A DNA stretch of 64,000 nucleotides from Escherichia coli (lineage in GTDB: Bacteria; Pseudomonadota; Gammaproteobacteria; Enterobacterales; Enterobacteriaceae). Under the pieces are notes generated by a model, which was not told the DNA's origin, ran no database searches, and worked only from the letters and a program-made list of their open reading frames with translations. Below, piece after piece: positions 17,401 through 57,303 of this stretch (the first letter of the stretch is position 1; the number at the start of each line of letters is the position of its first letter). The position numbers and the translations under genes are program-made. The stretch lies in assembly GCF_044324785.1 (NCBI RefSeq), contig NZ_CP172127.1; one strand, written 5' to 3'.

Positions 17401-17628
17401 ATGGCGATTAAAAAGCTGGATGTGGTGACGCAGGTCTGTCCGTTTCCACTCATAGAAGCAAAAGCAGCACTGGCAGAAATGGCCAGCGGCGATGAGTTGG
17501 TAATTGAGTTTGATTGCACCCAGGCAACTGAAGCAATCCCACAGTGGGCGGCAGAAGAAGGACATGCCATCACCGATTATCAGCAGATTGGCGATGCAGC
17601 GTGGAGCATCACCGTTCAAAAAGCCTGA
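17401..17628 (+). CDS. yeeD: TusA-like sulfurtransferase YeeD
   Basis: 75 aa with CPFP motif (MAIKKLDVVTQVCPFPLIEAK..), immediately downstream of yeeE. Confidence 0.92.
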   Translation: MAIKKLDVVTQVCPFPLIEAKAALAEMASGDELVIEFDCTQATEAIPQWAAEEGHAITDYQQIGDAAWSITVQKA

Positions 17629-17670
17629 CTCAACATTGTCCTCCGCCGTACCAGCGGCGGAGGCTTCAAA

Positions 17671-19098
17671 TTAGACGATCTCTTCCGCGTACTGCCAAAG
17701 CGCTTTTAACAGCGCCACTTTCTCTTTGTTATCGGCATATTGTTGTGCCAGCATCTGCAATTCATCTGCATAACCCTGTAAAAACTCTGGCGTGAAGACC
17801 TGGCGGCGGTGCTCCAGCCAGCGTTGCTGCTCGGCATAATCCAGCGTCCCCGGGAAGTTGCGCGCCCGATAATTGAACAACAGCTTTTCAATTCGTTTAT
17901 CAACAAAAGTGATATCCAGTGCCGGTAAATTACGCGGCTCGGTTTCCAGCACAATTTTCATTGCTGCACGATCGGCGTCACTGAAAAAGCCATTATAAAG
18001 CTGTGCATCCACATTATCTGAAGGTGTAAACGGTTCGGCTTCCGCGAATATCGCTACCACTTTTTCACGCACTTGCGGATTTTCACGCAGAATTTTTAGG
18101 TTATCGAGGCAATGCTGACGATTAATTCCCAGTCGGTCGGCATCTTCCGGGCGTAGCGTATTCGCCTGGGCCAGTACCGGACATTTATTGATATGCACCA
18201 GCTTAACCGGAACGGCGGCGTTATCGCCAAGATCGGCTTTTGCGGTATATAAACGCTCGCGCAATGTGTCGCTATCCAGTTCCAGTAATGGCGAAATGTC
18301 TCCTGCCAAATCCACCATAATTACGGCATTGCGATTTTCAGGATGCCACGCCAGCGGTGCTACCCAGCTGGTATTGCCGCGCCATGCCCCAAACATTCCG
18401 GAAACGTGAACCAGGGGTTTCATCTGCGGAACATCAATCAACGCCATTAGTTTGTGTTTATTACGATGGGTAAAGAGATAATCAAACAGGCGCGGCTGGC
18501 GCGTTTTTACCAGTTTTGCCATCGCAATAGTGGCGTACACATCAGCCATCGCATCGTGTGCGTTGCTATGTTCAATACCATTCGCTTTGGTTAAATGCTC
18601 AAGGCGAAAGCTCGGTAGACCGTCATCATTTTCAGGCCAGTTTATTCCTTCCGGGCGCAGGGCATAACAGGCACGCATAACATCCAGCAAATCCCAGCGC
18701 GAGTTATCATGCTGCCAGCTCCAGGCGTAAGGATCGTAGAAATTACGATAAAAAACGTTGCGTGTGACTTCGTCGTCGAAACGCACATTGTTGTAGCCCA
18801 GAATACAGGTCTTCGGTACGGTAAAAAGCGAGTGAATACGGGCGGCAAACGCGGCTTCGTTTTCTCCTTTCGCCCGTGCTTCCTGCGGGGTAATACCGGT
18901 AATTAATACTGCTCCAGGCTGGGGTAAATAGTCATCCGCGGGCTTGCAGTAAAAGACTTCGGGTTCGCCGATGACATTGAATTCGCTATCGGTGCGAATG
19001 GCTGCGAACTGTGCAGGGCGATCTAACGCGGGGTGCGTGCCAAAGGTTTCGTAATCGTGAAACAAAAAGGTAGATTGTTGCTTACCGTCATTCATCAT
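17671..19098 (-). CDS. sbcB: Exodeoxyribonuclease I
   Basis: MMNDGKQQSTFLFHDYETFGTHPALDRPAQFAAIRTD.. SbcB (475 aa); internal ATG of ORF 17671..19146. Confidence 0.95.
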   Translation of the reverse strand: MMNDGKQQSTFLFHDYETFGTHPALDRPAQFAAIRTDSEFNVIGEPEVFYCKPADDYLPQPGAVLITGITPQEARAKGENEAAFAARIHSLFTVPKTCILGYNNVRFDDEVTRNVFYRNFYDPYAWSWQHDNSRWDLLDVMRACYALRPEGINWPENDDGLPSFRLEHLTKANGIEHSNAHDAMADVYATIAMAKLVKTRQPRLFDYLFTHRNKHKLMALIDVPQMKPLVHVSGMFGAWRGNTSWVAPLAWHPENRNAVIMVDLAGDISPLLELDSDTLRERLYTAKADLGDNAAVPVKLVHINKCPVLAQANTLRPEDADRLGINRQHCLDNLKILRENPQVREKVVAIFAEAEPFTPSDNVDAQLYNGFFSDADRAAMKIVLETEPRNLPALDITFVDKRIEKLLFNYRARNFPGTLDYAEQQRWLEHRRQVFTPEFLQGYADELQMLAQQYADNKEKVALLKALWQYAEEIV

Positions 19099-21262: not shown

Positions 21263-22321
21263 GTGCGTGCCGATAAGTCATTAAGCCCGTTTGAAATCCG
21301 GGTATACCGCCATTACCGCATTGTGCATGGTACTCGGGTCGCGCTGGCATTCCTGCTCACTTTTCTCATTATCCGCCTGTTTACTATCCCGGAAAGTACC
21401 TGGCCGCTGGTCACCATGGTGGTGATTATGGGGCCAATCTCGTTCTGGGGTAACGTTGTCCCTCGTGCCTTCGAACGTATTGGCGGTACGGTGTTGGGTT
21501 CGATATTAGGTCTTATCGCTCTGCAACTGGAGTTAATCTCGTTACCGCTGATGTTAGTCTGGTGCGCGGCGGCCATGTTCCTTTGCGGTTGGCTGGCGCT
21601 GGGCAAGAAACCGTATCAAGGTTTATTGATTGGGGTGACGCTGGCAATTGTTGTGGGTTCCCCGACAGGTGAAATTGATACGGCGTTATGGCGAAGCGGC
21701 GATGTGATCCTCGGTTCTTTACTGGCAATGTTGTTTACCGGTATCTGGCCACAACGGGCGTTCATCCACTGGCGCATTCAACTGGCAAAAAGTCTGACCG
21801 AGTATAATCGGGTCTATCAATCTGCATTCTCACCGAACTTACTCGAACGCCCGCGTCTGGAAAGCCATCTACAAAAACTCCTGACCGATGCCGTGAAAAT
21901 GCGTGGGCTGATTGCGCCCGCCAGCAAAGAAACCCGTATTCCAAAATCGATATATGAAGGTATCCAGACCATTAATCGCAATCTGGTTTGTATGCTGGAG
22001 TTGCAAATCAATGCATACTGGGCCACGCGCCCCAGCCATTTCGTGTTATTGAATGCGCAAAAACTTCGTGATACCCAGCATATGATGCAGCAAATACTGC
22101 TGAGCCTTGTTCATGCGCTGTACGAAGGTAATCCGCAGCCGGTTTTTGCCAATACGGAAAAATTGAACGATGCTGTGGAAGAGCTGCGTCAGTTGCTGAA
22201 TAACCACCATGACCTGAAGGTTGTGGAAACACCAATCTATGGTTATGTGTGGCTGAACATGGAAACGGCACATCAGCTTGAGTTGCTATCGAATCTGATT
22301 TGCCGGGCCTTGCGCAAATAA
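21263..22321 (+). CDS. yeeA: Inner membrane protein YeeA (FUSC-like)
   Basis: 352 aa, GTG start, MRADKSLSPFEIRVYRHYRIVHGTRVALAFLLTFLI..; multiple TM segments. Confidence 0.88.
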   Translation: MRADKSLSPFEIRVYRHYRIVHGTRVALAFLLTFLIIRLFTIPESTWPLVTMVVIMGPISFWGNVVPRAFERIGGTVLGSILGLIALQLELISLPLMLVWCAAAMFLCGWLALGKKPYQGLLIGVTLAIVVGSPTGEIDTALWRSGDVILGSLLAMLFTGIWPQRAFIHWRIQLAKSLTEYNRVYQSAFSPNLLERPRLESHLQKLLTDAVKMRGLIAPASKETRIPKSIYEGIQTINRNLVCMLELQINAYWATRPSHFVLLNAQKLRDTQHMMQQILLSLVHALYEGNPQPVFANTEKLNDAVEELRQLLNNHHDLKVVETPIYGYVWLNMETAHQLELLSNLICRALRK

Positions 22322-22492
22322 TTCCTGAACTTCAGAATCATCTTGCTGCTGCTTCGATTCAGCAAGGATAAAGGGTATGATAGTGAAAAGGGATAAAAGC
22401 ATTGTCATCTGCGGCAGCTATGAGTAATGTTGGCCCTAACGAATAGCGGTTGCTTAAACGAATCCGACTCTCACATTATCAGGGGTATAAAA

Positions 22493-22822
22493 ATGGAAAC
22501 TACCAAGCCTTCATTCCAGGACGTACTGGAATTTGTTCGTCTGTTCCGTCGTAAGAACAAACTGCAACGTGAAATTCAGGACGTTGAGAAAAAGATCCGT
22601 GACAACCAGAAGCGCGTCCTGCTGCTGGACAACCTGAGCGATTACATCAAGCCGGGGATGAGCGTTGAAGCAATCCAGGGCATCATCGCCAGCATGAAAG
22701 GTGACTATGAAGATCGCGTTGACGATTACATCATCAAAAATGCCGAGCTCTCCAAAGAACGCCGCGATATCTCCAAAAAGCTGAAAGCTATGGGCGAAAT
22801 GAAAAACGGCGAAGCGAAGTAA
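22493..22822 (+). CDS. yeeX: UPF0265/DUF496 protein YeeX
   Basis: [39 protein letters not shown].. (109 aa); internal ATG of ORF 22427..22822. Confidence 0.9.
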
Positions 22823-22922
22823 TTCCTGTTTTATTCAATGAGGGTTGCCTGGCAACCCTCATTGCTCATTGATTCTTTTCTGTGCATCACCGTCATCATT
22901 CTCATCTGAGAACCTGTCGAAA

Positions 22923-23195
22923 TTAGCGACAGCCTTCTTCTGTATGCAGCAAGGCTAAAAGTTCTGCAACTCCATTGTTATTAACCGCACTGGTTACTAA
23001 CACGTTGTGCGCTCCAGCTTCCCGTAACCAACATTTCACCAAAGATATTTGTTCCATGTTGGCTAAATCTGCTTTGGTTACTACTCCAATGACCGGGCGA
23101 TTCATTGACGAGGTAAAGCCTGGCGAAAAAGGGGACCACGGTGCGTCCGCATTAAGCACCAGGGCGATAATGTCCGCTTCGCAGGCGCTGACCAA
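22923..23195 (-). pseudogene. EutP/PduV-like small GTPase, C-terminal fragment only (no P-loop-bearing N-terminus found)
   Basis: 90-aa ORF ..[52 protein letters not shown].. resembles the C-terminal half of EutP/PduV proteins; no upstream ORF encodes a Walker A motif. Confidence 0.45.
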
Positions 23196-23689
23196 CAGAG
23201 CACTGTAGAGGCTGCGGTTTTATCTGTGAGGACTGGCAGCAAGATTTCCAGCCTCTTGATGGTGGGCCTGTGCAATCGTTATCAGATGCGTATAGCGATT
23301 ATACAGTGCTGCTATTGATAGCAGCTGAAAGCGAGATATCCGTACCAGAATGGCTCGCTCATTCTGAAGGAACGACGGTAATTGTGATTGCAGAACACAA
23401 TGCCCGTTTGCTGACTGGTCCGGCTGGTGGGGCTGTAGCATTGATCCATTATCTGAATGAAATCTGTCATTCCAGAGAAACCGCTGTCAATGACGCATTT
23501 TGTCGTACGTTAACACGAGGAAGTCTGGCTATCCCGCAATGCCATCTTCTTTCGTAATGGATTGAGAATGCTGGATTTTTAATTATATTACGCGCAGTAT
23601 TAATCGCGTAAATGTTTTGCGGTCAGCAACGGTGGGGATCCATTGTTCTGTTCAATGAATACCATCATACAATTGAATCAGGAGTCGGT

Positions 23690-24235
23690 ATGATGATTTT
23701 GGTGACGGGGGGCGCACGGAGCGGGAAGAGTCGCCATGCAGAGGCGCTTATTGGGGACTCTTCACAGGTTCTGTATATCGCCACCTCTCAAATCCTTGAT
23801 GATGAGATGGCTGCACGGATAGAACATCATCGGCAAGGCCGCCCGGCGCACTGGCACACAGTGGAGCGCTGGCAACATCTTGATGAATTAATTCATGCAG
23901 ACATTAACCCGCATGAGGCTGTGTTGCTGGAATGCGTTACCACAATGGTGACTAATCTGTTGTTTGATTATGGCGGCGATAAAGACCCTGATGAATGGGA
24001 TTATCAGGCGATGGAACAGGCGATTAATGCTGAGATTCAGTCGTTGATTGCTGCCTGCCAACGTTGCCCCGCAAAGGTTGTATTAGTGACTAACGAAGTG
24101 GGAATGGGGATTGTGCCGGAGAGTCGTCTGGCACGACATTTTCGTGATATTGCCGGGCGGGTAAATCAGCAGCTGGCCGCTGCGGCAAATGAAGTGTGGC
24201 TGGTGGTTTCGGGTATTGGAGTAAAAATCAAATGA
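23690..24235 (+). CDS. cobU: Adenosylcobinamide kinase / adenosylcobinamide-phosphate guanylyltransferase
   Basis: [23 protein letters not shown].. (P-loop); internal ATG of ORF 23612..24235. Confidence 0.93.
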
Positions 24236-24975
24236 GTAAATTATTTTGGGCGATGCTCTCTTTTATTACGCGTCTGCCTGTGCCGCGTCGCTGGTCCCAG
24301 GGACTGGATTTCGAGCATTATTCTCGCGGTATTATTACTTTTCCTTTAATTGGTTTATTGCTTGGCGCGATTAGCGGGCTGGTCTTCATGGCGTTGCAGG
24401 CATGGTTTGGCGTACCACTGGCGGCACTGTTTAGCGTGCTGGTGCTGGCGCTTATGACCGGAGGATTCCACCTGGACGGCCTCGCCGATACCTGTGATGG
24501 CGTATTTTCTGCACGTAGCCGCGATCGCATGTTGGAAATCATGCGTGATAGCCGTTTAGGTACCCACGGCGGTCTGGCATTGATTTTTGTTGTACTGGCA
24601 AAGATTTTGGTGTTAAGCGAGTTGGCTCTGCGTGGCGAACCGATCCTTGCATCGCTGGCGGCAGCATGTGCGGTCAGCCGCGGGACTGCCGCATTATTGA
24701 TGTATCGTCATCGTTATGCCCGGGAAGAAGGGCTTGGCAATGTGTTCATTGGCAAAATTGATGGGCGACAAACCTGCGTCACACTCGGCTTAGCCGCTAT
24801 TTTTGCTGCCGTATTATTGCCGGGTATGCATGGTGTGGCTGCTATGGTGGTGACGATGATGGCGATTTTCATCCTCGGTCAGCTTCTCAAACGTACGCTG
24901 GGCGGGCAAACCGGCGATACGCTGGGAGCAGCCATAGAGCTTGGTGAACTGGTCTTCCTGCTGGCACTGCTATAA
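24232..24975 (+). CDS. cobS: Adenosylcobinamide-GDP ribazoletransferase (cobalamin synthase)
   Basis: [21 protein letters not shown].. CobS; ATG overlaps the cobU stop (ATGA). Confidence 0.93.
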
Positions 24976-36880: not shown

Positions 36881-39800
36881 ATGAGCGGAAAACCGGCAGC
36901 ACGTCAGGGCGATGCCACAATGAAAGGTGGCCCGATAGTCCAGGGGTCGGCAGGCGTGAGGATTGGCGCGCCAACCGGCGTGGCCTGTTCAGTGTGCCCC
37001 GGCGGATTCACTTCCGGTAACCCGGTGAATCCGCTGCTCGGTGCAAAAGTACAGCCCGGCGAAACCGATTTCGCGCTGCCCGGCCCGTTACCGTTCGTGC
37101 TCTCCCGCACCTACAGCAGCTACCGGACGAAAACCCCTGCGCCCGTCGGTATCTTCGGTCCTGGCTGGAAAGCACCCTTTGATATCCGCTTACAGATACG
37201 CGATAACGAACTGATACTCAATGATAACGGTGGCAGAAGCATTCATTTTGAGCACCTGTTTCCCGGTGAGGATGGCTTCAGCCGCAGCGAATTATTCTGG
37301 CTGGTGCGCGGCGGCGTGGCGAAACTGAATGAAAGTCACCGTCTTGCCCCACTCTGGCAGGCTCTGCCGGAAGAACTCCGCATGAGTCCGCATATTTATC
37401 TGGCGACGAACAGTCCGCAGGGGCCGTGGTGGATACTCGGCTGGAGTGAGCGGGTACCGGGTGTGGATGAGGTGCTGCCTGCGCCATTGCCGCCGTACCG
37501 GGTGCTGACCGGCCTGGTGGACCGCTTCGGGCGTACCCTGACCTTCCGGCGTGAGGCAGTTGGCGAATTTACCGGGGAAATCACCGGCGTGACCGATGGC
37601 GCAGGCCGTCAGTTCCGCCTGGTGCTGACCACGCAGGCGCAGCGGGCGGAAGAGGCCCAGCAGCAGGCGGTTGCAGCCGGAGCAAAACGACCAGATATCC
37701 CGGTTTCATTGCCGGACTATACAGAATATGGCCGGGATAACGGCATCCGCCTGTCAGCGGTGTGGCTGGCGCATGACCCGGAATACCCGGAGAATTTACC
37801 TGCCGCGCCACTGGTGCGCTACGACTGGACGCCACGCGGTGAACTGGCGGCGGTGTATGACCGCAGCGGTACGCAGATGCGCCACTTTACTTACGATGAT
37901 AAATACCGGGGCCGGATGGTGGCGCACCGTTACGCAGGCAGGCCGGAGATGCGTTACCGCTACGACGACATCGGGCGCGTGACGGAACAACGTAATCCGG
38001 CGGGTTTAAGCTACACCTATCAGTATGAGAAAAACCGCATCATCATCACCGACAGCCTGAACCGGTGCGAGGTGCTGCATACAGAAGGCGAAGCCGGGCT
38101 GAAACGGGTGGTGAAAAAAGAGCACGCTGACGACAGCGTCACACAGAGTCAGTTCGATTCCATTGGCCGCCTTCAGTCACAGACGGATGCGGCAGGCCGG
38201 ACGACAGAATACAGTCCGAATGTGGTGACGGGTCTCGTCACACGCATCACCACGCCGGACGGCAGGAAATCGGAATTTTACTATAACAACCAGAACCAGT
38301 TAACCTCAGCATCCGGGCCTGACGGACTGGAAATGCGCAGGAAATATGATGAGTACGGGCGTCTGACGCAGGAAACCGCTCGCAACGGCGATATCACCCG
38401 CTACAGTTATGATAATCCGCACAGTGAATTACCCTCTGCAACTGAAGATGCGACGGGTAGCCGCAAGCAGATGACGTGGAGCCGTTACGGGCAGTTACTG
38501 ACTTTCACCGACTGCTCAGGCTACCAGACCCGTTATGAATACGACCGCTTTGGTCAGATGACGGCGGTCCACCGTGAGGAAGGTGTCAGTCTTTACCGCA
38601 GCTATGACAGCCGTGGTCAGTTAATCTCGGTGAAAGATACGCAGGGCCGTGAAACGCAGTATGAGTACAACGGTGCAGGCGACCTGACCGCCATTATCAC
38701 GCCAGACGACAACAGAAGCGAGACACAGTACGATGCGTGGGGAAAGGCCGTCAGTACCACGCAGGGCGGGCTGACGCGCAGCATGGAATACGACGTTGCC
38801 GGACGTGTCATCAGCCTGACCAACGAGAACGGCTGTCACAGCGACTTCAGTTACGATGTGCTCGACCGCCTGATACAGCAGAGCGGCTTTGACGGGCGGA
38901 CGCAACGTTACCGTTACGACCTGACCGGGAAACTCACGCAGAACGAGGATGAGGGGCTTGTCACCCTCTGGCACTACGACGAATCGGACCGTATCACACA
39001 CCGCACGGTGAACGGCGAACCGGCAGAGCAGTGGCGGTATAACGACCACGGCTGGCTGAAAGAAATCAGCCACCTGAGCGAAGGTCACCGGGTGGCGGTG
39101 CATTACGGCTATAACCGTAAGGGACGTCTCACCGGCGAGCGCCAGACGGTGCATAACCCGGAGACGGGGGAACTGCTCTGGCTGCATGAGACAAAACACG
39201 CCTACAACGAACAGGGTCTGGCAAACCGCGTCACGCCGGACTGCCTGCCTGCTGTGGAGTGGCTGACCTACGGCAGCGGTTACCTGGCGGGGATGAAGCT
39301 GGGCGACACGCCGCTGCTGGAGTACGCGCGCGACCGCCTGCACAGAGAAACGGTGCGCAGCTTTGGCAGCATGGCAGGCAGTAATGCCGCATACGAACTG
39401 ACCAGCACATACACCCCTGCAGGCCAGTTACAGAGCCAGCACCTGAACAGCCTGGTGTATGACCGTGACTACGGGTGGAATGACAACGGCGACCTGGTGC
39501 GCATCAGCGGCCCGCGACAGACGCGGGAATATGGCTACAGCGCCACGGGCAGGCTGGAGAGTGTGCGCACCCTCGCACCGGACCTGGACATCCGCATCCC
39601 GTATGCCACCGACCCGGCGGGCAACCGGCTGCCGGACCCGGAGCTGCACCCGGACAGTACACTCACGGCGTGGCCGGATAACCGCATCGCCGAAGACGCG
39701 CATTACCTGTACCGTTACGATGAATACGGCAGGCTGACGGAGAAGACGGACCGCATCCCGGCGGGTGTGATACGGACGGACGACGAGCGGACCCACCACT

Positions 39801-41062
39801 ACCACTACGACAGCCAGCACCGTCTGGTGTTCTACACGCGGATACAGCATGGCGAGCCACTGGTCGAGAGCCGCTACCTCTACGACCCGCTGGGACGGCG
39901 AATGGCGAAAAGGGTATGGCGGCGGGAGCGTGACCTGACGGGGTGGATGTCGCTGTCGCGTAAACCGGAGGAGACATGGTACGGGTGGGACGGCGACAGG
40001 CTGACGACGGTGCAGACTGACACCACGCGTATCCAGACGGTGTACCAGCCGGGAAGCTTCACGCCGCTCATCAGAATCGAAACAGACGTGACCGAACTGG
40101 AGAAAGCGCAGCGGCGAAGCCTGGCGGAGAAGTTACAGCAGGAAGGGAGTAAAGATGGTCACGGCGTGGTGTTCCCGCCTGAACTGGTGCGGCTGCTGGA
40201 CAGGCTGGAGGGGGAAATCCGGGCAGACCGTGTGAGTGACGAAAGCCGGGCGTGGCTTGCGCAGTGCGGGCTGACGGTGGAGCGGCTGGCGGCACAGATC
40301 GAGCCAGTTTATTTGCCTGAGCGAAAAATACATCTTTATCACTGCGACCACCGGGGACTGCCGCTGGCGCTTATCAGTACTGAAGGTGCAACGGAATGGC
40401 GTGGGGAGTATGACGAGTGGGGGAATCAGCTTAATGAGGAGAACCCGCATCATCTGTTCCAGCCATACCGCCTGCCGGGGCAGCAGTACGATGATGAATC
40501 GGGGCTGTGCTATAATCGTTATCGTTACTACGAGCCGTTACAAGGGAGGTATATTACACAGGACCCGATTGGGTTAAATGGGGGGTGGAATTTATATAAA
40601 TATCCGCTGAATCCAATAAATTATGCAGATCCTCTTGGCTTAGCCGTAGATATAAACCACTTCCCAGTCAACGAAGACATACGAAATTATGCAGAGAAAG
40701 TTTGGAATAATCCTAATATCATTACAATTGGAACACATGGTGATCCTCAATCAGTATATGATGAAAATTATAATAAGATAGATGTCAAGACATTAGCTAA
40801 TGAGGTTCGAAATCATCCTAAATTTAAACCTGGAATGTCAGTAAGACTGTTATCCTGTAATACAGGAAAAGGAAATAACTCTTTTGCACAGCAATTGGCA
40901 GATGAACTAGGTGTGAGAGTCTATGCTCCTGACCAATATGACTGGTACTATTCAAATGGTAAGGTAGAGCCTTGGGGAGGATTCTATGATGCAAACAATC
41001 AATTGCAAATGGACACGAATCAGCCTGGACATGAGTTTACATTCAAGCGAAGGAAACCATAG
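36881..41062 (+). CDS. Rhs-family polymorphic toxin: N-terminal PAAR-like domain, YD-repeat core, variable C-terminal toxin domain
   Basis: 1393 aa; N-terminus [38 protein letters not shown] (PAAR-like); many YD repeats (..RYRYDDIGR.., ..YEYDRFGQ..); core ends in the PxxxxDPxGL motif ([14 protein letters not shown]); SD AAGGAT upstream. Confidence 0.95.
40643..41059 (+). other. Variable C-terminal toxin domain of the Rhs protein (139 aa, low GC)
   Basis: Sequence after [144 protein letters not shown]. Clear drop in GC relative to the core. Confidence 0.8.
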
Positions 41063-41064
41063 GT

Positions 41065-41667
41065 ATGAGGTATTTTCTCTTTATATTTATAACAATCCCC
41101 CTTATCTCTGGAGGTCATATGAGTAATGATAGCGAAAAGATAATATCAACATATTCGCTCAATTTTTTATCACCAGATGATGTGAGGAAAGAAGAACTTA
41201 AGGCATCACAAGGTGATAGTGATGCTGCATTTAAATTGTACAAATATTACCTTTTTTGCGAGCCAAAATCATACAGAAAACAGCACGAATGGTTAATAAT
41301 ATCGGCAAATAATGGAAATGCTATAGCTCAATATAACTTATCAAGAGAACTTGAGTCAGAAGGAAAAGTAGATGAATCAATACAATGGCTGAAAAAATCA
41401 GCGGAACATGGTAATAATTATGCACAATATCAGATGTCAAAATATTTATTAAAAATAGGTGATATTAGAGGATCGGAATATTATCTAAACTTATCTGCGG
41501 ATAACGGATGTGTATTTGCAATAAAAGATATTATCAAAAATATGATGGATAGTGGAAGGTACGATGACGCCCTCATTTGGGTTGAAAAATTGAAAAAATT
41601 GTATCCTGACACAAATACCGAACTTTACATACAAAAAATAACGCAGAAAAAAAAGCAATCCAAATAA
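41065..41667 (+). CDS. Putative cognate Rhs immunity protein with Sel1-like repeats
   Basis: Starts 2 nt after the rhs stop; AT-rich; Sel1/TPR-like repeats (..GNAIAQYNLSRELESEGKV..SIQWLKKSAEHGNNYAQYQMSKYLL..). An alternative start ATG at 41119 has a strong GGAGG SD. Confidence 0.7.
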   Translation: MRYFLFIFITIPLISGGHMSNDSEKIISTYSLNFLSPDDVRKEELKASQGDSDAAFKLYKYYLFCEPKSYRKQHEWLIISANNGNAIAQYNLSRELESEGKVDESIQWLKKSAEHGNNYAQYQMSKYLLKIGDIRGSEYYLNLSADNGCVFAIKDIIKNMMDSGRYDDALIWVEKLKKLYPDTNTELYIQKITQKKKQSK

Positions 41668-41955
41668 TAATTATATATAATTACTCGCACAGAGTTACAG
41701 TATTGCAAGAAATATATCTAGCATATAAAGTCGCCGCCAGTAAAGATAAAGTACTGTGTAATCCTTCCTCCCATATAGGGGTAAAAACTTAGCATCCAGT
41801 GCCCTCGACTTAATTTTTAGTATTTTCTCTGTGAAGTGACACTTCGTAGGATTCAGTTCATGTTTACCAGAAAAAAGGTGGTCATTCTGGTGGTCTTGAC
41901 AATCTCGATTTTTTGTTTTAGCTTTCCAATCAGCCAATTAATGGCTACGGCGATC

Positions 41956-41975
41956 CCAGTCAGAGGAGCCAAATT
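41956..41975 (+). repeat. Island right-end direct repeat (attR): copy of the tRNA-Asn 3' end
   Basis: ccagtcagaggagccaaatt is identical to the 3' end of asnW plus 4 nt of flank (31412..31431). Confidence 0.8.
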
Positions 41976-42032
41976 TTAGTTTTGAGACATCTCTATGAGT
42001 CTCAAGACAGTTAAAAAATAAAAATTATTTTT

Positions 42033-42067
42033 ACCCGGTTACCTTGTAAAAAGTGACCGGGTTTTTT
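42033..42067 (+). terminator. Rho-independent terminator (probable ancestral asnW terminator, displaced by the island)
   Basis: Hairpin acccggttaccttgtaaaaagtgaccgggt followed by a run of 6 T, just after the attR repeat. Confidence 0.6.
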
Positions 42068-42419
42068 GATTTCTGTGTTTCGTGCGCTTAATCGAGTCTC
42101 ACGCTTCGGTGAGCAAATTGCCCCCCAACAGACATCACGATTCGCAAGGTCAAAAAATTCGTTCCGTGAAGTACCATACAAAGGTATAGAGAAAAATGCC
42201 TTATGCGGGATGTTGCTGTCGCGTTTTTATCGGGAAACTAAACGTAATTGCCACTTTGTCTTCTGTAATCAGAAAAAGAAAACCTGGAATTTTAATAAAT
42301 ATTATTTCTCTGGGGCCGGTATTTTTATAATCAATATGATGGGTTGAATATTATATTTTTTATAGGAATATATGAGATTAAAGAAATCTGCCATAAAGAC
42401 AGATTCCTTTAAAATATAA

Positions 42420-43136
42420 TTAGAGATTTGCGACGTTATGATAAACTTTTTGAACATCGTCGTCATCTTCAAGGGCATCAACAAGCCCTTCAAAGATTTC
42501 TAAATCTTCTGGGGAAAGCTCAACTTCAGATTGAGCAATCATTTCTAATTCTGTTGTTGAGAACTCAGTGATTCCAGCTGCTTTTAGAGCCGCGATTCCT
42601 TTATGAAGGTCAGTAGGTTCGGTATAAATAACAATGTTACCTTCTTCTTCAGTCACATCACGAACATCAACTTCAGCTTCAAGTAAAATTTCAAAAATAT
42701 GGTCAGGGTCTGTTCCTTTAAATACAATCACACCCGTATTGTCAAACATATAGCTGACAGAACCTGCCGCTCCGATATTGCCGCCTTTTTTATTGAAAAT
42801 TGTGCGAACGTTAGCAATCGTACGGTTAACATTGGAAGTCAAGGTCTCAGCGATAATCATTGAGCCATTAGGACCAAAGCCTTCATAACGGCCCTGCACG
42901 AACGTTTCATCTCCGCCGCCTTTGGCTTTATCAATTGCTTTATCAATAACATGCTTTGGAACTTGTGCCTGCTTTGCTCGTTCAATAACGAATTTTAAAG
43001 ATGTGTTTAATTCTGGATCGGGTTCACCTTGTTTGGCAGCGGCATAGATTTCTACACCGAATTTTGCATAAATTTTAGACGTCGCACCGTCTTTAGCCGT
43101 TTTTTTAGCAACAATATTGGCCCATTTACGTCCCAC
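42420..43136 (-). CDS. yeeN: YebC/PmpR-family probable transcriptional regulator YeeN
   Basis: 238 aa, [37 protein letters not shown].. YeeN. Confidence 0.93.
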
Positions 43137-43477
43137 TGGAATGATCTCCTCGAAAATTTATTTACATTACTGGTAAATCGTTAACATGTGTTAATTCGGA
43201 ATATTATATCATAACAGGAAAAATCTCGTCTATTAGAAATAAAAATATTCTAAAGCCATAATATTATATTTAATCTCATAAAAACTAATGTCGTTGGCGG
43301 ATTTTTTTATAATTGTGTTTTGAAAGCATACTTGCTTTTAATATGTGGAAATCATTAAGGCTAGAATAAAACTCGTATCCGCCCCAGGAAGCAAACAGCC
43401 TGCTTTATTGCAGGCTATTTGCTGGATGACTTACTAAATCCTTCACATCTATTCCTGATAAAAAGGAACAGAATTTA

Positions 43478-48299: not shown

Positions 48300-56915
<8,616 letters not shown>

Positions 56916-57112
56916 GCTTACCTTCCCTGAACGAGCTAACATAAATGCGCCCTTTCTAGCACAGCGAAAAAAAGTAAATCCTGATAGCAATATGATTGAA
57001 AATTAATAACTTTTCGTTAAGCAGTTTTGAGTGTGAGTTGCAAGAGGGGAGACTACTGAATTACTCAAGTTTTATAATCGAGGGGAAAATGGTGATGGCG
57101 TTCATAGCAAAA

Positions 57113-57227: not shown

Positions 57228-57303
57228 TGGCTCCTCTGACTGGACTCGAACCAGTGACATACGGATTAACAGTCCGCCGTTCTACCGACTGAACTACAGA
57301 GGA
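57228..57303 (-). tRNA. asnT: tRNA-Asn (GUU)
   Basis: Fourth identical 76-nt tRNA-Asn copy, between yeeJ and mtfA. Confidence 0.97.

What the first reader, a model, noticed from the sequence alone, without database searches (positions are those of the whole stretch)
22823..23689. yeeX-cobU interval is an empty prophage site with an EutP/PduV-like gene remnant
In K-12 the CP4-44 cryptic prophage (flu/Ag43 and neighbours) lies between cobU and yeeX. Here the interval is only about 870 bp and holds a C-terminal fragment of an EutP/PduV-like GTPase and a 95-aa unknown ORF (23270..23557), resembling an unoccupied state.
Basis: partly seen in the sequence, partly recalled or inferred. Interest (0 to 1): 0.35.

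Follow-up and report, generated by a model that had tools for sequence, protein, structure and literature searches.

The report
Deletion scar of the propanediol operon
The short gap between yeeX (tmaR) and cobU in this E. coli is what remains after one 17-kb deletion removed the propanediol-utilisation operon and its regulators, leaving two headless gene fragments; it is an ordinary, largely already-annotated strain polymorphism.

Summary
The yeeX(tmaR)–cobU interval is 867 bp (22823–23689). It contains a minus-strand C-terminal PduV/EutP fragment (22923–23219) and the reported 95-aa ORF (23270–23557).

K-12 does carry CP4-44 here, and this window never held that island. However, K-12 lacks 280 bp (23106–23385) that the window keeps, so this is not a clean empty attachment site.

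The "unknown" ORF is the 3' two-thirds of a 145-aa decayed cbiG N-terminal remnant. In pdu-positive E. coli this remnant lies between a cobalamin riboswitch and cobU.

The two fragments meet head-to-head at a 5-bp microhomology (GTTTT, 23217–23221). Relative to pdu+ E. coli, 17,254 bp are missing:
- pduV codons 1–49
- pduU through pduA
- pduF and pocR
- the B12 riboswitch
- cbiG' codons 1–34

The intact layout also occurs in loci carrying E. albertii- and E. marmotae-type cbiG', so deletion is the derived state.

Among 5,426 complete E. coli genomes:
- about 198–201 share this exact junction
- 648 are pdu+
- about 84% lack the junction region; sampled ones are K-12-like and carry an island

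This is low-interest and essentially known biology. One side lead: the intact cbiG' ORF shows signs of weak purifying selection.

The parts
22493..22822 (+). yeeX / tmaR (DUF496), left flank of the interval
   Evidence: Pfam PF04363, E=2.3e-45. RefSeq annotates tmaR at the same place in matching genomes.
22836..22864 (.). 13-bp-stem hairpin between the converging 3' ends of yeeX and the pduV remnant. Probably a shared terminator (inference).
   Evidence: RNA fold -22.1 kcal/mol, z=-5.3 against shuffles. The simple terminator scan did not flag it because it lacks an adjacent T-run.
22923..23219 (-). pduV pseudogene remnant: codons 50-147 plus the stop. The start codon, Walker A (GPSQCGKT, residues 8-15) and DTPGE (residues 42-46) are missing.
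   Evidence: PF10662 E=6e-24. TIGR02528 E=2.5e-27, 95.8 bits, below the 138.35 cut-off. 97/98 identical to intact PduV residues 50-147. Intact sequence shown. PGAP annotates this as 'EutP/PduV family... missing N-terminus' in matching genomes.
23217..23221 (.). Deletion junction: the 5-bp microhomology GTTTT shared by the pduV-side and cbiG'-side parental sequences.
   Evidence: BLAST to pdu+ locus L005 gives window 22400-23221 = L005 1921-2742 and window 23217-24300 = L005 19992-21076, a 5-bp overlap. Pattern positions confirmed. Alignments.
23222..23557 (+). cbiG' remnant: codons 35-145 plus the stop of the 145-aa Escherichia cbiG N-terminal-like ORF. Its start codon, RBS and upstream riboswitch are deleted.
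   Evidence: NF004463 CbiG: E=4.7e-5 for the window piece and 1.6e-19 for the 145-aa parent, positions 1-125 of 351. 96% identity to the parent. The parent is 36% identical to residues 1-119 of a 358-aa CbiG that has CbiG_N, mid and C domains.
23106..23385 (.). 280-bp segment spanning the junction. It is absent from K-12, which has CP4-44 in its place.
   Evidence: BLAST window against NC_000913.3 and alignment. 4,583 of 5,426 genomes have no match to a 101-bp probe (23170-23270) inside this segment.
23562..23589 (+). Sigma-70-like hexamers TTGAGA-16-TATATT, about 100 bp upstream of cobU. A candidate cobUST promoter retained in all allelic states (inference only).
   Evidence: Consensus scan found 1 site against 1.7 expected by chance, so it is not significant on its own. 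The region is retained in K-12.
23690..24235 (+). cobU, intact, right flank. It is followed by cobS and cobT.
   Evidence: PF02283, E=2.8e-64, full-length profile match. ORFs listed.

Best explanation
The interval is the scar of one microhomology-mediated deletion of about 17.25 kb.

**Ancestral layout.** The layout in Escherichia is yeeX - pduV...pduA (minus strand) - pduF - pocR - cobalamin riboswitch - cbiG' - cobUST. cbiG' is a 145-aa leftover of an older loss of the cbi genes.

**The deletion.** Illegitimate recombination between two GTTTT pentamers, one in pduV codons 49-50 and one in cbiG' codons 33-34, removed everything between them. Two 5'-truncated, promoterless fragments now face away from a head-to-head junction at 23217-23221.

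**Consequences.** Neither fragment should have a function. The PduV piece lacks its P-loop and start codon. The cbiG' piece lacks its start codon, RBS and riboswitch. The strain has lost 1,2-propanediol catabolism, PocR and riboswitch/PocR control of the cob leader. It keeps intact cobUST, presumably expressed from promoters in the last ~300 bp upstream of cobU, which K-12 also retains.

**Relation to CP4-44.** The CP4-44/PAI-cobU-type island seen in most E. coli is a separate event at the same locus, with different breakpoints (23105 and 23386). The window has never carried that island.

**Shown versus inferred.** Shown: fragment identities, junction, deletion size, polarity and population frequencies. 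Inferred: the repair mechanism, the lack of function of the fragments, and the source of cobUST expression.
For: - **Fragment identities:** for PduV; for CbiG-N. The fold search also puts the S. solfataricus CbiG homologue 3eeq as the best match by TM-score (0.51) and probability (0.94), although it is not significant.
- **Intact reference layout in pdu+ E. coli:**. The riboswitch RF00174 scores 107.8 bits in the pdu+ locus. No Rfam match was found in window 22300-24300.
- **Junction:** the two flanks are collinear with L005 and overlap by 5 bp. The breakpoints are L005 2738 and 19992, giving 17,254 bp.
- **Single event:** the same junction occurs in divergent alleles with 89-99% identity.
- **Polarity:** loci encoding the E. 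albertii-named and E. marmotae-named cbiG' proteins have pdu-pduF-pocR-cbiG'-cob. The missing halves of both truncated genes exist only in the pdu+ state.
- **Independence from the K-12 island:** the breakpoints differ, and the window keeps 280 bp that K-12 lacks.
- **Frequencies:** 198-201 genomes carry the junction, 648 are pdu+, and 4,583 lack the junction region, out of 5,426.
Against: - Immediately 3' of the microhomology, the window reads ATCT where sampled pdu+ alleles read GTTG. The exact crossover point, or the parental allele, is therefore uncertain by a few bases. One junction-bearing strain reads ATTG, a single difference.
- The junction allele occurs in strains from varied hosts and with diverged flanks. 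This needs either an old polymorphism or spread by homologous recombination. I did not map it on a phylogeny.
- No expression data exist, so residual translation of the 95-aa ORF cannot be excluded.
- Species names for L008-L010 rest on source protein names, not on the records themselves.
Confidence: 0.9

Rival explanations
1. Simple unoccupied attachment site of the CP4-44-type island. On this view the window shows the pre-insertion target and the fragments are incidental.
For: The island is absent. K-12 has CP4-44 here. cobU-yeeX is a listed insertion site, and several ExPEC strains carry a PAI-cobU. The window contains both K-12 breakpoints intact, so it could represent the substrate into which an island inserted.
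Against: K-12 lacks 280 bp that are present here, so the insertion was a replacement. No direct repeat of 8 bp or more lies at the island ends, and those ends abut transposase fragments. The main content of the locus, in Escherichia species and in 648 E. coli genomes, is the pdu block. The island could equally have replaced a pdu+ locus.
Confidence: 0.1
2. The short state is ancestral, and pdu+ strains acquired the 17-kb pdu-pocR block by insertion.
For: The pdu operon is reported to be gained and lost repeatedly within E. coli lineages such as ST372 (PMC9997745). pdu+ genomes are a minority, 12%.
Against: An insertion cannot supply the exact missing 5' halves of two genes whose 3' halves already sit at the site. 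PduV residues 50-147 are 97/98 identical and cbiG' codons 35-145 are in frame. Loci with E. albertii- and E. marmotae-type cbiG' show the pdu+ layout. Reported re-acquisition in lineages is best explained by homologous replacement of the whole locus.
Confidence: 0.03
3. The window state arose by excision or deletion of a K-12-like island.
For: Island-bearing genomes are the majority. The islands carry IS elements that can mediate deletions.
Against: The window retains 280 bp (23106-23385) that island-bearing genomes lack. Those 280 bp are collinear with pdu+ genomes. A deletion cannot restore lost sequence.
Confidence: 0.02
4. One or both fragments are still functional small genes. Candidates are the 95-aa ORF from GTG 23270 and the 90-aa minus-strand ORF from TTG 23195.
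For: Both frames are still open. The intact cbiG' parent shows dN/dS of 0.32-0.40 rather than about 1. PGAP calls a CDS over the cbiG' part in matching genomes.
Against: The PduV piece lacks its P-loop and G3 motif. The cbiG' piece lacks its start, RBS, riboswitch and 34 conserved N-terminal codons. About 84% of E. coli genomes have lost the region around the junction, and SC467-type strains delete nearly all of both fragments. Open frames are expected shortly after a deletion.
Confidence: 0.05

Closest known systems
K-12 yoeF and the right-hand boundary of CP4-44
   Same: Same locus and same pseudogene. K-12 YoeF ends with the C-terminal ~60 residues of PduV, immediately next to yeeX/tmaR and the same hairpin.
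   Different: In K-12 the PduV remnant is cut at window position 23105 by a transposase fragment and fused to island sequence. In the window it extends 114 bp further (to 23219) and is fused directly to cbiG' with no mobile DNA.
Intact pdu locus of pdu+ E. coli (for example 2015C-3107, ETEC1748) and of other Escherichia species
   Same: The flanks are collinear at about 98.5% identity. pduV and cbiG' are the parental genes of the two fragments.
   Different: The window lacks 17,254 bp: pduV codons 1-49 through pduA, pduF, pocR, the cobalamin riboswitch and cbiG' codons 1-34.
Loss of the cob-pdu cluster in E. coli and S. bongori (Lawrence & Roth 1996, as cited in PMC3158058)
   Same: The same kind of event. 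An enteric lineage deletes the B12-dependent propanediol and B12-synthesis cluster and keeps only end fragments. S. bongori retains fragments of cobT and pduX.
   Different: Here cobUST is intact. The cbi genes were already gone, apart from cbiG', before this deletion. The event is a within-species polymorphism, not a species-wide loss. The E. coli operon ends at pduV, with no pduW or pduX next to yeeX.
PAI-cobU / GI-cobU of ExPEC and the CP4-44 family of islands
   Same: They use the same cobU-yeeX interval.
   Different: The window carries no island. The island alleles have other breakpoints (23105 and 23386 or 23431) and IS-derived ends.

Membership tests
EutP/PduV small GTPase family (PF10662, TIGR02528) | Significant match to the family profile | tested here: met
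   PF10662 scores 84.9 bits against a gathering score of 21, E=6e-24, but only over profile positions 59-142 of 143. TIGR02528 scores 95.8 bits, below its 138.35 cut-off because of the truncation.
EutP/PduV small GTPase family (PF10662, TIGR02528) | N-terminal Walker A P-loop (GxxxxGK[ST]) and G3 DxxG motif in a complete ORF of about 145 aa | tested here: not met
   Intact E. coli PduV has GPSQCGKT at residues 8-15 and DTPGE at 42-46. The window copy starts at residue 50 and has no start codon. It is a pseudogene fragment, not a family member in the functional sense.
EutP/PduV small GTPase family (PF10662, TIGR02528) | Location at the end of a microcompartment (pdu or eut) operon | tested here: not met
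   No pdu genes lie in the window interval. At the orthologous position in pdu+ strains the gene follows pduU. The EutP equivalog NF012011 scores only 46.8 bits against a cut-off of 258 for the intact protein, so the gene is PduV rather than EutP.
CbiG, cobalt-precorrin-5A hydrolase | Three-domain architecture CbiG_N + CbiG_mid + CbiG_C (about 350 aa), reaching the NCBIfam equivalog cut-off | tested here: not met
   No Pfam CbiG domain is detected, even at E<=10. NF004463 scores 22.7 bits for the window piece and 70.3 bits for the 145-aa parent, against a cut-off of 546. True CbiG hits P0055 and P0068 have all three domains.
CbiG, cobalt-precorrin-5A hydrolase | Homology to the CbiG N-terminal region | tested here: met
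   The 145-aa parent is 36% identical to residues 1-119 of the 358-aa CbiG P0055, E=2e-19. The profile search recovers full-length CbiG aligned from residue 1. The fold search is weak: 3eeq has TM 0.51 and probability 0.94 but E=0.17.
Unoccupied attachment site of a CP4-44-type integrative island | Sequence equals the two island-flanking sequences joined, with a single copy of the repeat that flanks the island | tested here: not met
   The window has 280 bp that K-12 lacks. No direct repeat of 8 bp or more lies within +/-150 bp of the K-12 island ends. The island ends are transposase or IS fragments.
Unoccupied attachment site of a CP4-44-type integrative island | Island absent from the interval | tested here: met
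   The 867-bp interval is fully accounted for by the pduV-side and cbiG'-side sequences.
Microhomology-mediated (illegitimate-recombination) deletion scar | Both flanks collinear with an intact reference, overlapping by a few bases, with no filler or mobile-element DNA and with truncated genes on both sides | tested here: met
   5-bp GTTTT overlap and 17,254 bp missing. Both genes are 5'-truncated. No transposase similarity was found in the interval ORFs.
Microhomology-mediated (illegitimate-recombination) deletion scar | Intact state is ancestral (present in outgroups) | tested here: met
   pdu-pduF-pocR-cbiG'-cob is found in loci encoding the E. albertii- and E. marmotae-named cbiG' proteins. 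Flanking genes have dS of 0.35-1.3 against E. coli.

The most novel reading that the evidence does not exclude
In pdu+ Escherichia, the 145-aa cbiG' ORF is not dead debris but a retained, riboswitch-controlled gene. The window keeps only its headless 3' two-thirds. cbiG' could be a stand-alone CbiG-N-like protein. Alternatively it could be a leader ORF whose translation couples the cobalamin riboswitch to cobUST expression.

On this reading, the window deletion and the K-12-type island both uncouple B12 salvage from B12 sensing.

Evidence that does not exclude this:
- dN/dS is 0.32-0.40, not about 1.
- ORF length is kept at 144-145 codons in three species. A substitutions-only neutral simulation keeps the frame open in only 5-7% of runs per branch at 0.2-0.25 substitutions per site.
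- The best AlphaFold model has pLDDT 77.6, although the five models disagree.
Probability: 0.2. Interest if true: 0.35.

Novelty: already known. Interest (0 to 1): 0.13.

Why it matters
It matters little. The result clarifies that the cobU-yeeX hot spot in E. coli has at least four allelic states:
- pdu+
- this 17-kb deletion scar
- an island replacement, as in K-12
- a smaller secondary deletion

The 'hypothetical' ORF and K-12 yoeF are leftovers of cbiG and pduV. This is useful for annotation, since both should be flagged as pseudogene remnants, and for typing pdu presence or absence. pdu has been linked to host and diet adaptation and to AIEC.

For the strain itself, the result predicts no 1,2-propanediol catabolism, and cobinamide salvage (cobUST) without the riboswitch and PocR leader.

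Tried and rejected
1. **cbiP hypothesis.** From the Salmonella gene order, my first guess was that the 95-aa ORF was a cbiP C-terminal remnant. I rejected this. The only family hit is CbiG N-terminus, and profile and BLASTP comparisons align it to residue 1 onward of full-length CbiG.
2. **Pfam.** Scans of the 95-, 111- and 145-aa translations gave nothing, even at E<=10.
3. **Word-indexed homologue search.** It returned only short Escherichia/Shigella proteins. The exhaustive profile search was needed to reach true CbiG.
4. **Rfam.** A scan of 22300-24300 at E<=1 found nothing, so no riboswitch or sRNA lies in the interval.
5. **Promoter and terminator scan.** Results were at chance level.
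6. **att-like repeats.** I found none at the K-12 island ends.
7. **PDB fold search.** The cbiG' model gave no significant match. 3eeq (a CbiG homologue) is best by TM-score only.
8. **Literature.** Lawrence & Roth 1995/1996 are not held in the library, so I cite them only second-hand through PMC3158058 and PMC5282855.
9. **Other remnants.** I did not test whether the non-CbiG tail of cbiG' (residues ~120-145), or the 133-bp spacer before cobU, derives from cbiP.

Full report
**1. What is in the sequence**

yeeX (now tmaR; DUF496, E=2.3e-45) ends at 22822. cobU (PF02283, E=2.8e-64) starts at 23690. The interval is therefore exactly 22823-23689, 867 bp.

Fourteen bases after the yeeX stop lies a strong 13-bp-stem hairpin at 22836-22864 (-22.1 kcal/mol, z=-5.3).

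On the minus strand, 22923-23219 encodes 98 codons plus a stop. These match the PduV/EutP family (PF10662 E=6e-24; TIGR02528 E=2.5e-27), but only over the C-terminal two-thirds of the profiles.

**2. Identity of the window**

The window is E. coli chromosome. A 24-kb stretch around the finding is 99.6% identical to strain N3 and 98.5-98.9% identical to a group of mainly canine and human isolates.

RefSeq/PGAP annotates the same two pieces in those genomes. One is 'EutP/PduV family microcompartment system protein, incomplete, missing N-terminus'. The other is a 111-aa 'hypothetical protein' or 'cobalamin biosynthesis protein'.

**3. What normally fills the interval**

Searching the 867 bp against 5,426 complete E. 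coli genomes shows several states.

In one class the match breaks at query position 395-404, which is window ~23217-23226. In these genomes (for example ETEC1748 and 2015C-3107) the locus reads as follows:
- tmaR
- pduV (147 aa, minus strand), then pduU, T, S, Q, P, O, N, M, L, K, J, H, G, E, D, C, B, A
- pduF
- pocR
- cobalamin riboswitch
- a 145-aa ORF
- cobU, cobS, cobT

The riboswitch is real: RF00174 scores 107.8 bits. Nothing from Rfam matches the window interval.

The window's PduV piece is 97/98 identical to residues 50-147 of the intact protein. The intact protein's Walker A (GPSQCGKT, residues 8-15) and DTPGE (residues 42-46) are in the missing part.

**4. The 'unknown' ORF**

The 145-aa ORF of pdu+ strains has no Pfam hit. 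It does match the NCBIfam CbiG equivalog NF004463 over positions 1-125 of 351 (E=1.6e-19). The window's 111-aa version matches positions 41-125 (E=4.7e-5).

An exhaustive profile search built from Escherichia copies recovers full-length CbiG proteins aligned from their first residue. These carry CbiG_N, CbiG_mid and CbiG_C domains. BLASTP gives 36% identity over 119 residues.

The ORF is therefore a decayed 5' remnant of cbiG, which I call cbiG'. It is not cbiP, as I had first guessed from the Salmonella order pocR-cbiABCDETFGHJKLMNQOP-cobUST (order quoted in PMC5282855).

The window keeps codons 35-145.

**5. The junction**

Both flanks of the window are collinear with the pdu+ locus L005:
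- window 22400-23221 = L005 1921-2742
- window 23217-24300 = L005 19992-21076

The two alignments overlap by 5 bp, GTTTT at 23217-23221 (pattern positions; alignment). The missing segment is 17,254 bp. There is no filler and no mobile-element sequence.

The geometry is two genes truncated at their 5' ends and joined head-to-head. Together with the 5-bp microhomology, this indicates a single illegitimate-recombination deletion. The mechanism is inferred.

Three of the four bases after the microhomology differ from the sampled pdu+ alleles (ATCT against GTTG). One junction-bearing strain reads ATTG. The exact crossover is therefore uncertain by a few bases.

**6. Polarity and age**

The pdu-pduF-pocR-cbiG'-cob layout is also found in loci encoding the cbiG' proteins that NCBI names as E. 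albertii and E. marmotae. Flanking genes there have dS of 0.35-1.3 against E. coli.

The pdu+, cbi-less layout therefore predates E. coli, and the window state is derived.

Six junction-type sequences, the window and five genomes, with clearly different flanking alleles all show the same junction. A 101-bp junction probe is covered in one piece in 198 genomes, at 89-99% identity. A Shigella dysenteriae protein (P0033) reads across the same chimeric junction. This points to one event, later diversified and/or moved by homologous recombination.

**7. Relation to CP4-44**

K-12 has CP4-44 annotated between cobU and tmaR. K-12 matches the window only up to 23105 on the yeeX side and from 23386 on the cobU side. 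It has 12,688 bp where the window has 280 bp.

O157:H7 shares the 23105 breakpoint. On the cobU side it is cut further, to 23431, by ISEc8.

The K-12 island ends abut transposase fragments and share no direct repeat of 8 bp or more.

K-12 YoeF is a chimera whose last ~60 residues are the PduV C-terminus.

Three conclusions follow:
- The window was never derived from an island-bearing allele, because it keeps sequence those alleles lack.
- It is not a clean 'empty att site'.
- The island is a separate replacement event at the same hot spot, which the literature calls cobU-yeeX / PAI-cobU (PMC3032704, PMC7545054).

A fourth state is an independent ~408-bp deletion of window ~23100-23507, seen in SC467.

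**8. Frequencies among 5,426 complete genomes**

| State | Genomes | Share |
|---|---|---|
| Junction allele | 198-201 | 3.7% |
| pdu+ (2-kb pduV-pduS probe) | 648 | 11.9% |
| No match to the junction probe | 4,583 | 84.5% |

The 843 genomes that match the junction probe equal 198 plus 645, which is consistent with the first two rows. In an evenly spaced sample of the ranking, the genomes in the last row show K-12-like breakpoints.

Gain and loss of pdu within E. coli lineages is already reported, for example in ST372 (PMC9997745). Loss of cob-pdu in E. coli and S. bongori is textbook (PMC3158058, citing Lawrence & Roth 1996).

**9. Consequences (inferred)**

The strain lacks the Pdu microcompartment pathway, PduF, PocR and the cob-leader riboswitch. 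It keeps intact cobUST.

The last ~300 bp upstream of cobU are common to all states, including K-12. They contain one sigma-70-like site (23562-23589), which is not above chance. cobUST expression presumably comes from this stretch.

Neither fragment is expected to be functional.

**10. Side lead**

Between species, the intact cbiG' has dN/dS of 0.32-0.40, against 0.02-0.11 for its neighbours. This is strongly relaxed but not neutral.

The ORF stays 144-145 codons long in three species. A substitutions-only neutral simulation keeps it open in only 5-7% of runs per branch at 0.2-0.25 substitutions per site.

The AlphaFold result is ambiguous: best model pLDDT 77.6, the other four 38.6-61.0. The PDB fold search has no significant hit; the CbiG homologue 3eeq is top by TM-score.

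This hints that cbiG' may be maintained in pdu+ Escherichia, possibly as the translated first ORF behind the riboswitch. It does not affect the verdict on the window, where the ORF is decapitated.

**11. Verdict**

The finding is real but ordinary. It is a pseudogene-bearing deletion scar at a well-known variable locus, already annotated as such in RefSeq. The better description is 'pdu-pocR deletion scar, never occupied by the CP4-44-type island'.

Noticed in passing
L005 19895-20332 (also L004 19904-20341, L008/L009/L010 10001-10435); truncated copy at window 23222-23557: The 145-aa cbiG' remnant behind the cobalamin riboswitch keeps an open frame of 144-145 codons in E. coli and in E. albertii- and E. 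marmotae-type loci. Its dN/dS is 0.32-0.40, against 0.02-0.11 for neighbouring genes. A neutral simulation keeps the ORF open in only about 5-7% of runs per branch. It may be a maintained leader ORF or small protein rather than pure debris.
   Followed up: partly
L003 (NC_000913.3) 17576-17932: K-12 yoeF, annotated as 'putative uncharacterized protein', is a chimera. Its N-terminal half is read from IS/island-derived sequence, and its last ~60 residues are the PduV C-terminus. The CP4-44 right boundary (L003 17749) coincides exactly with the breakpoint at window 23105.
   Followed up: yes
L006 (E. coli SC467) 1501-1958: An independent, smaller allele of the interval (458 bp). It lacks window ~23100-23507 and removes most of both remnants, with a 2-bp overlap at its junction. 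The spread sample suggests it occurs in a few percent of genomes.
   Followed up: partly
L008 and L009 10436-11900: In the E. albertii-type loci no cobU gene is called between cbiG' and cobS, and cobS is followed directly by ldtA with no cobT. The cobUST salvage operon may be decaying there even though pdu is present.
   Followed up: no
L004 3805-5150: In the pdu+ strain ETEC1748 the pduS homologue (4Fe-4S dicluster protein) is annotated as frameshifted. Some 'pdu+' genomes counted by DNA similarity may therefore not be functionally Pdu+.
   Followed up: no
window 31352-43400: Next to the third tRNA-Asn (31352-31427) lies a small island. It has a truncated tyrosine integrase (32029-32850; Phage_integrase E=6e-17, N-terminally short) and a 1,393-aa RHS-repeat protein (36881-41062). 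A similar integrase/RHS island sits by tRNA-Asn in the pdu+ loci L004 and L005.
   Followed up: partly
window 48300-56990 (-): A 2,896-aa inverse autotransporter (IAT_beta domain plus 18 Big_1 and 15 Invasin_D3 repeats) lies beside the fourth tRNA-Asn (57228-57303). It is probably the YeeJ-type adhesin, longer than I recall for K-12. That length comparison is from memory and was not checked.
   Followed up: no
window 23386-23689 versus K-12 L003 4766-5061: The cbiG' tail retained upstream of cobU in K-12-like genomes is only about 91.5% identical to the window and has a 9-bp deletion. pdu+ and junction alleles are 97-99% identical. The island-bearing haplotype is therefore markedly more diverged in this stretch.
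   Followed up: no
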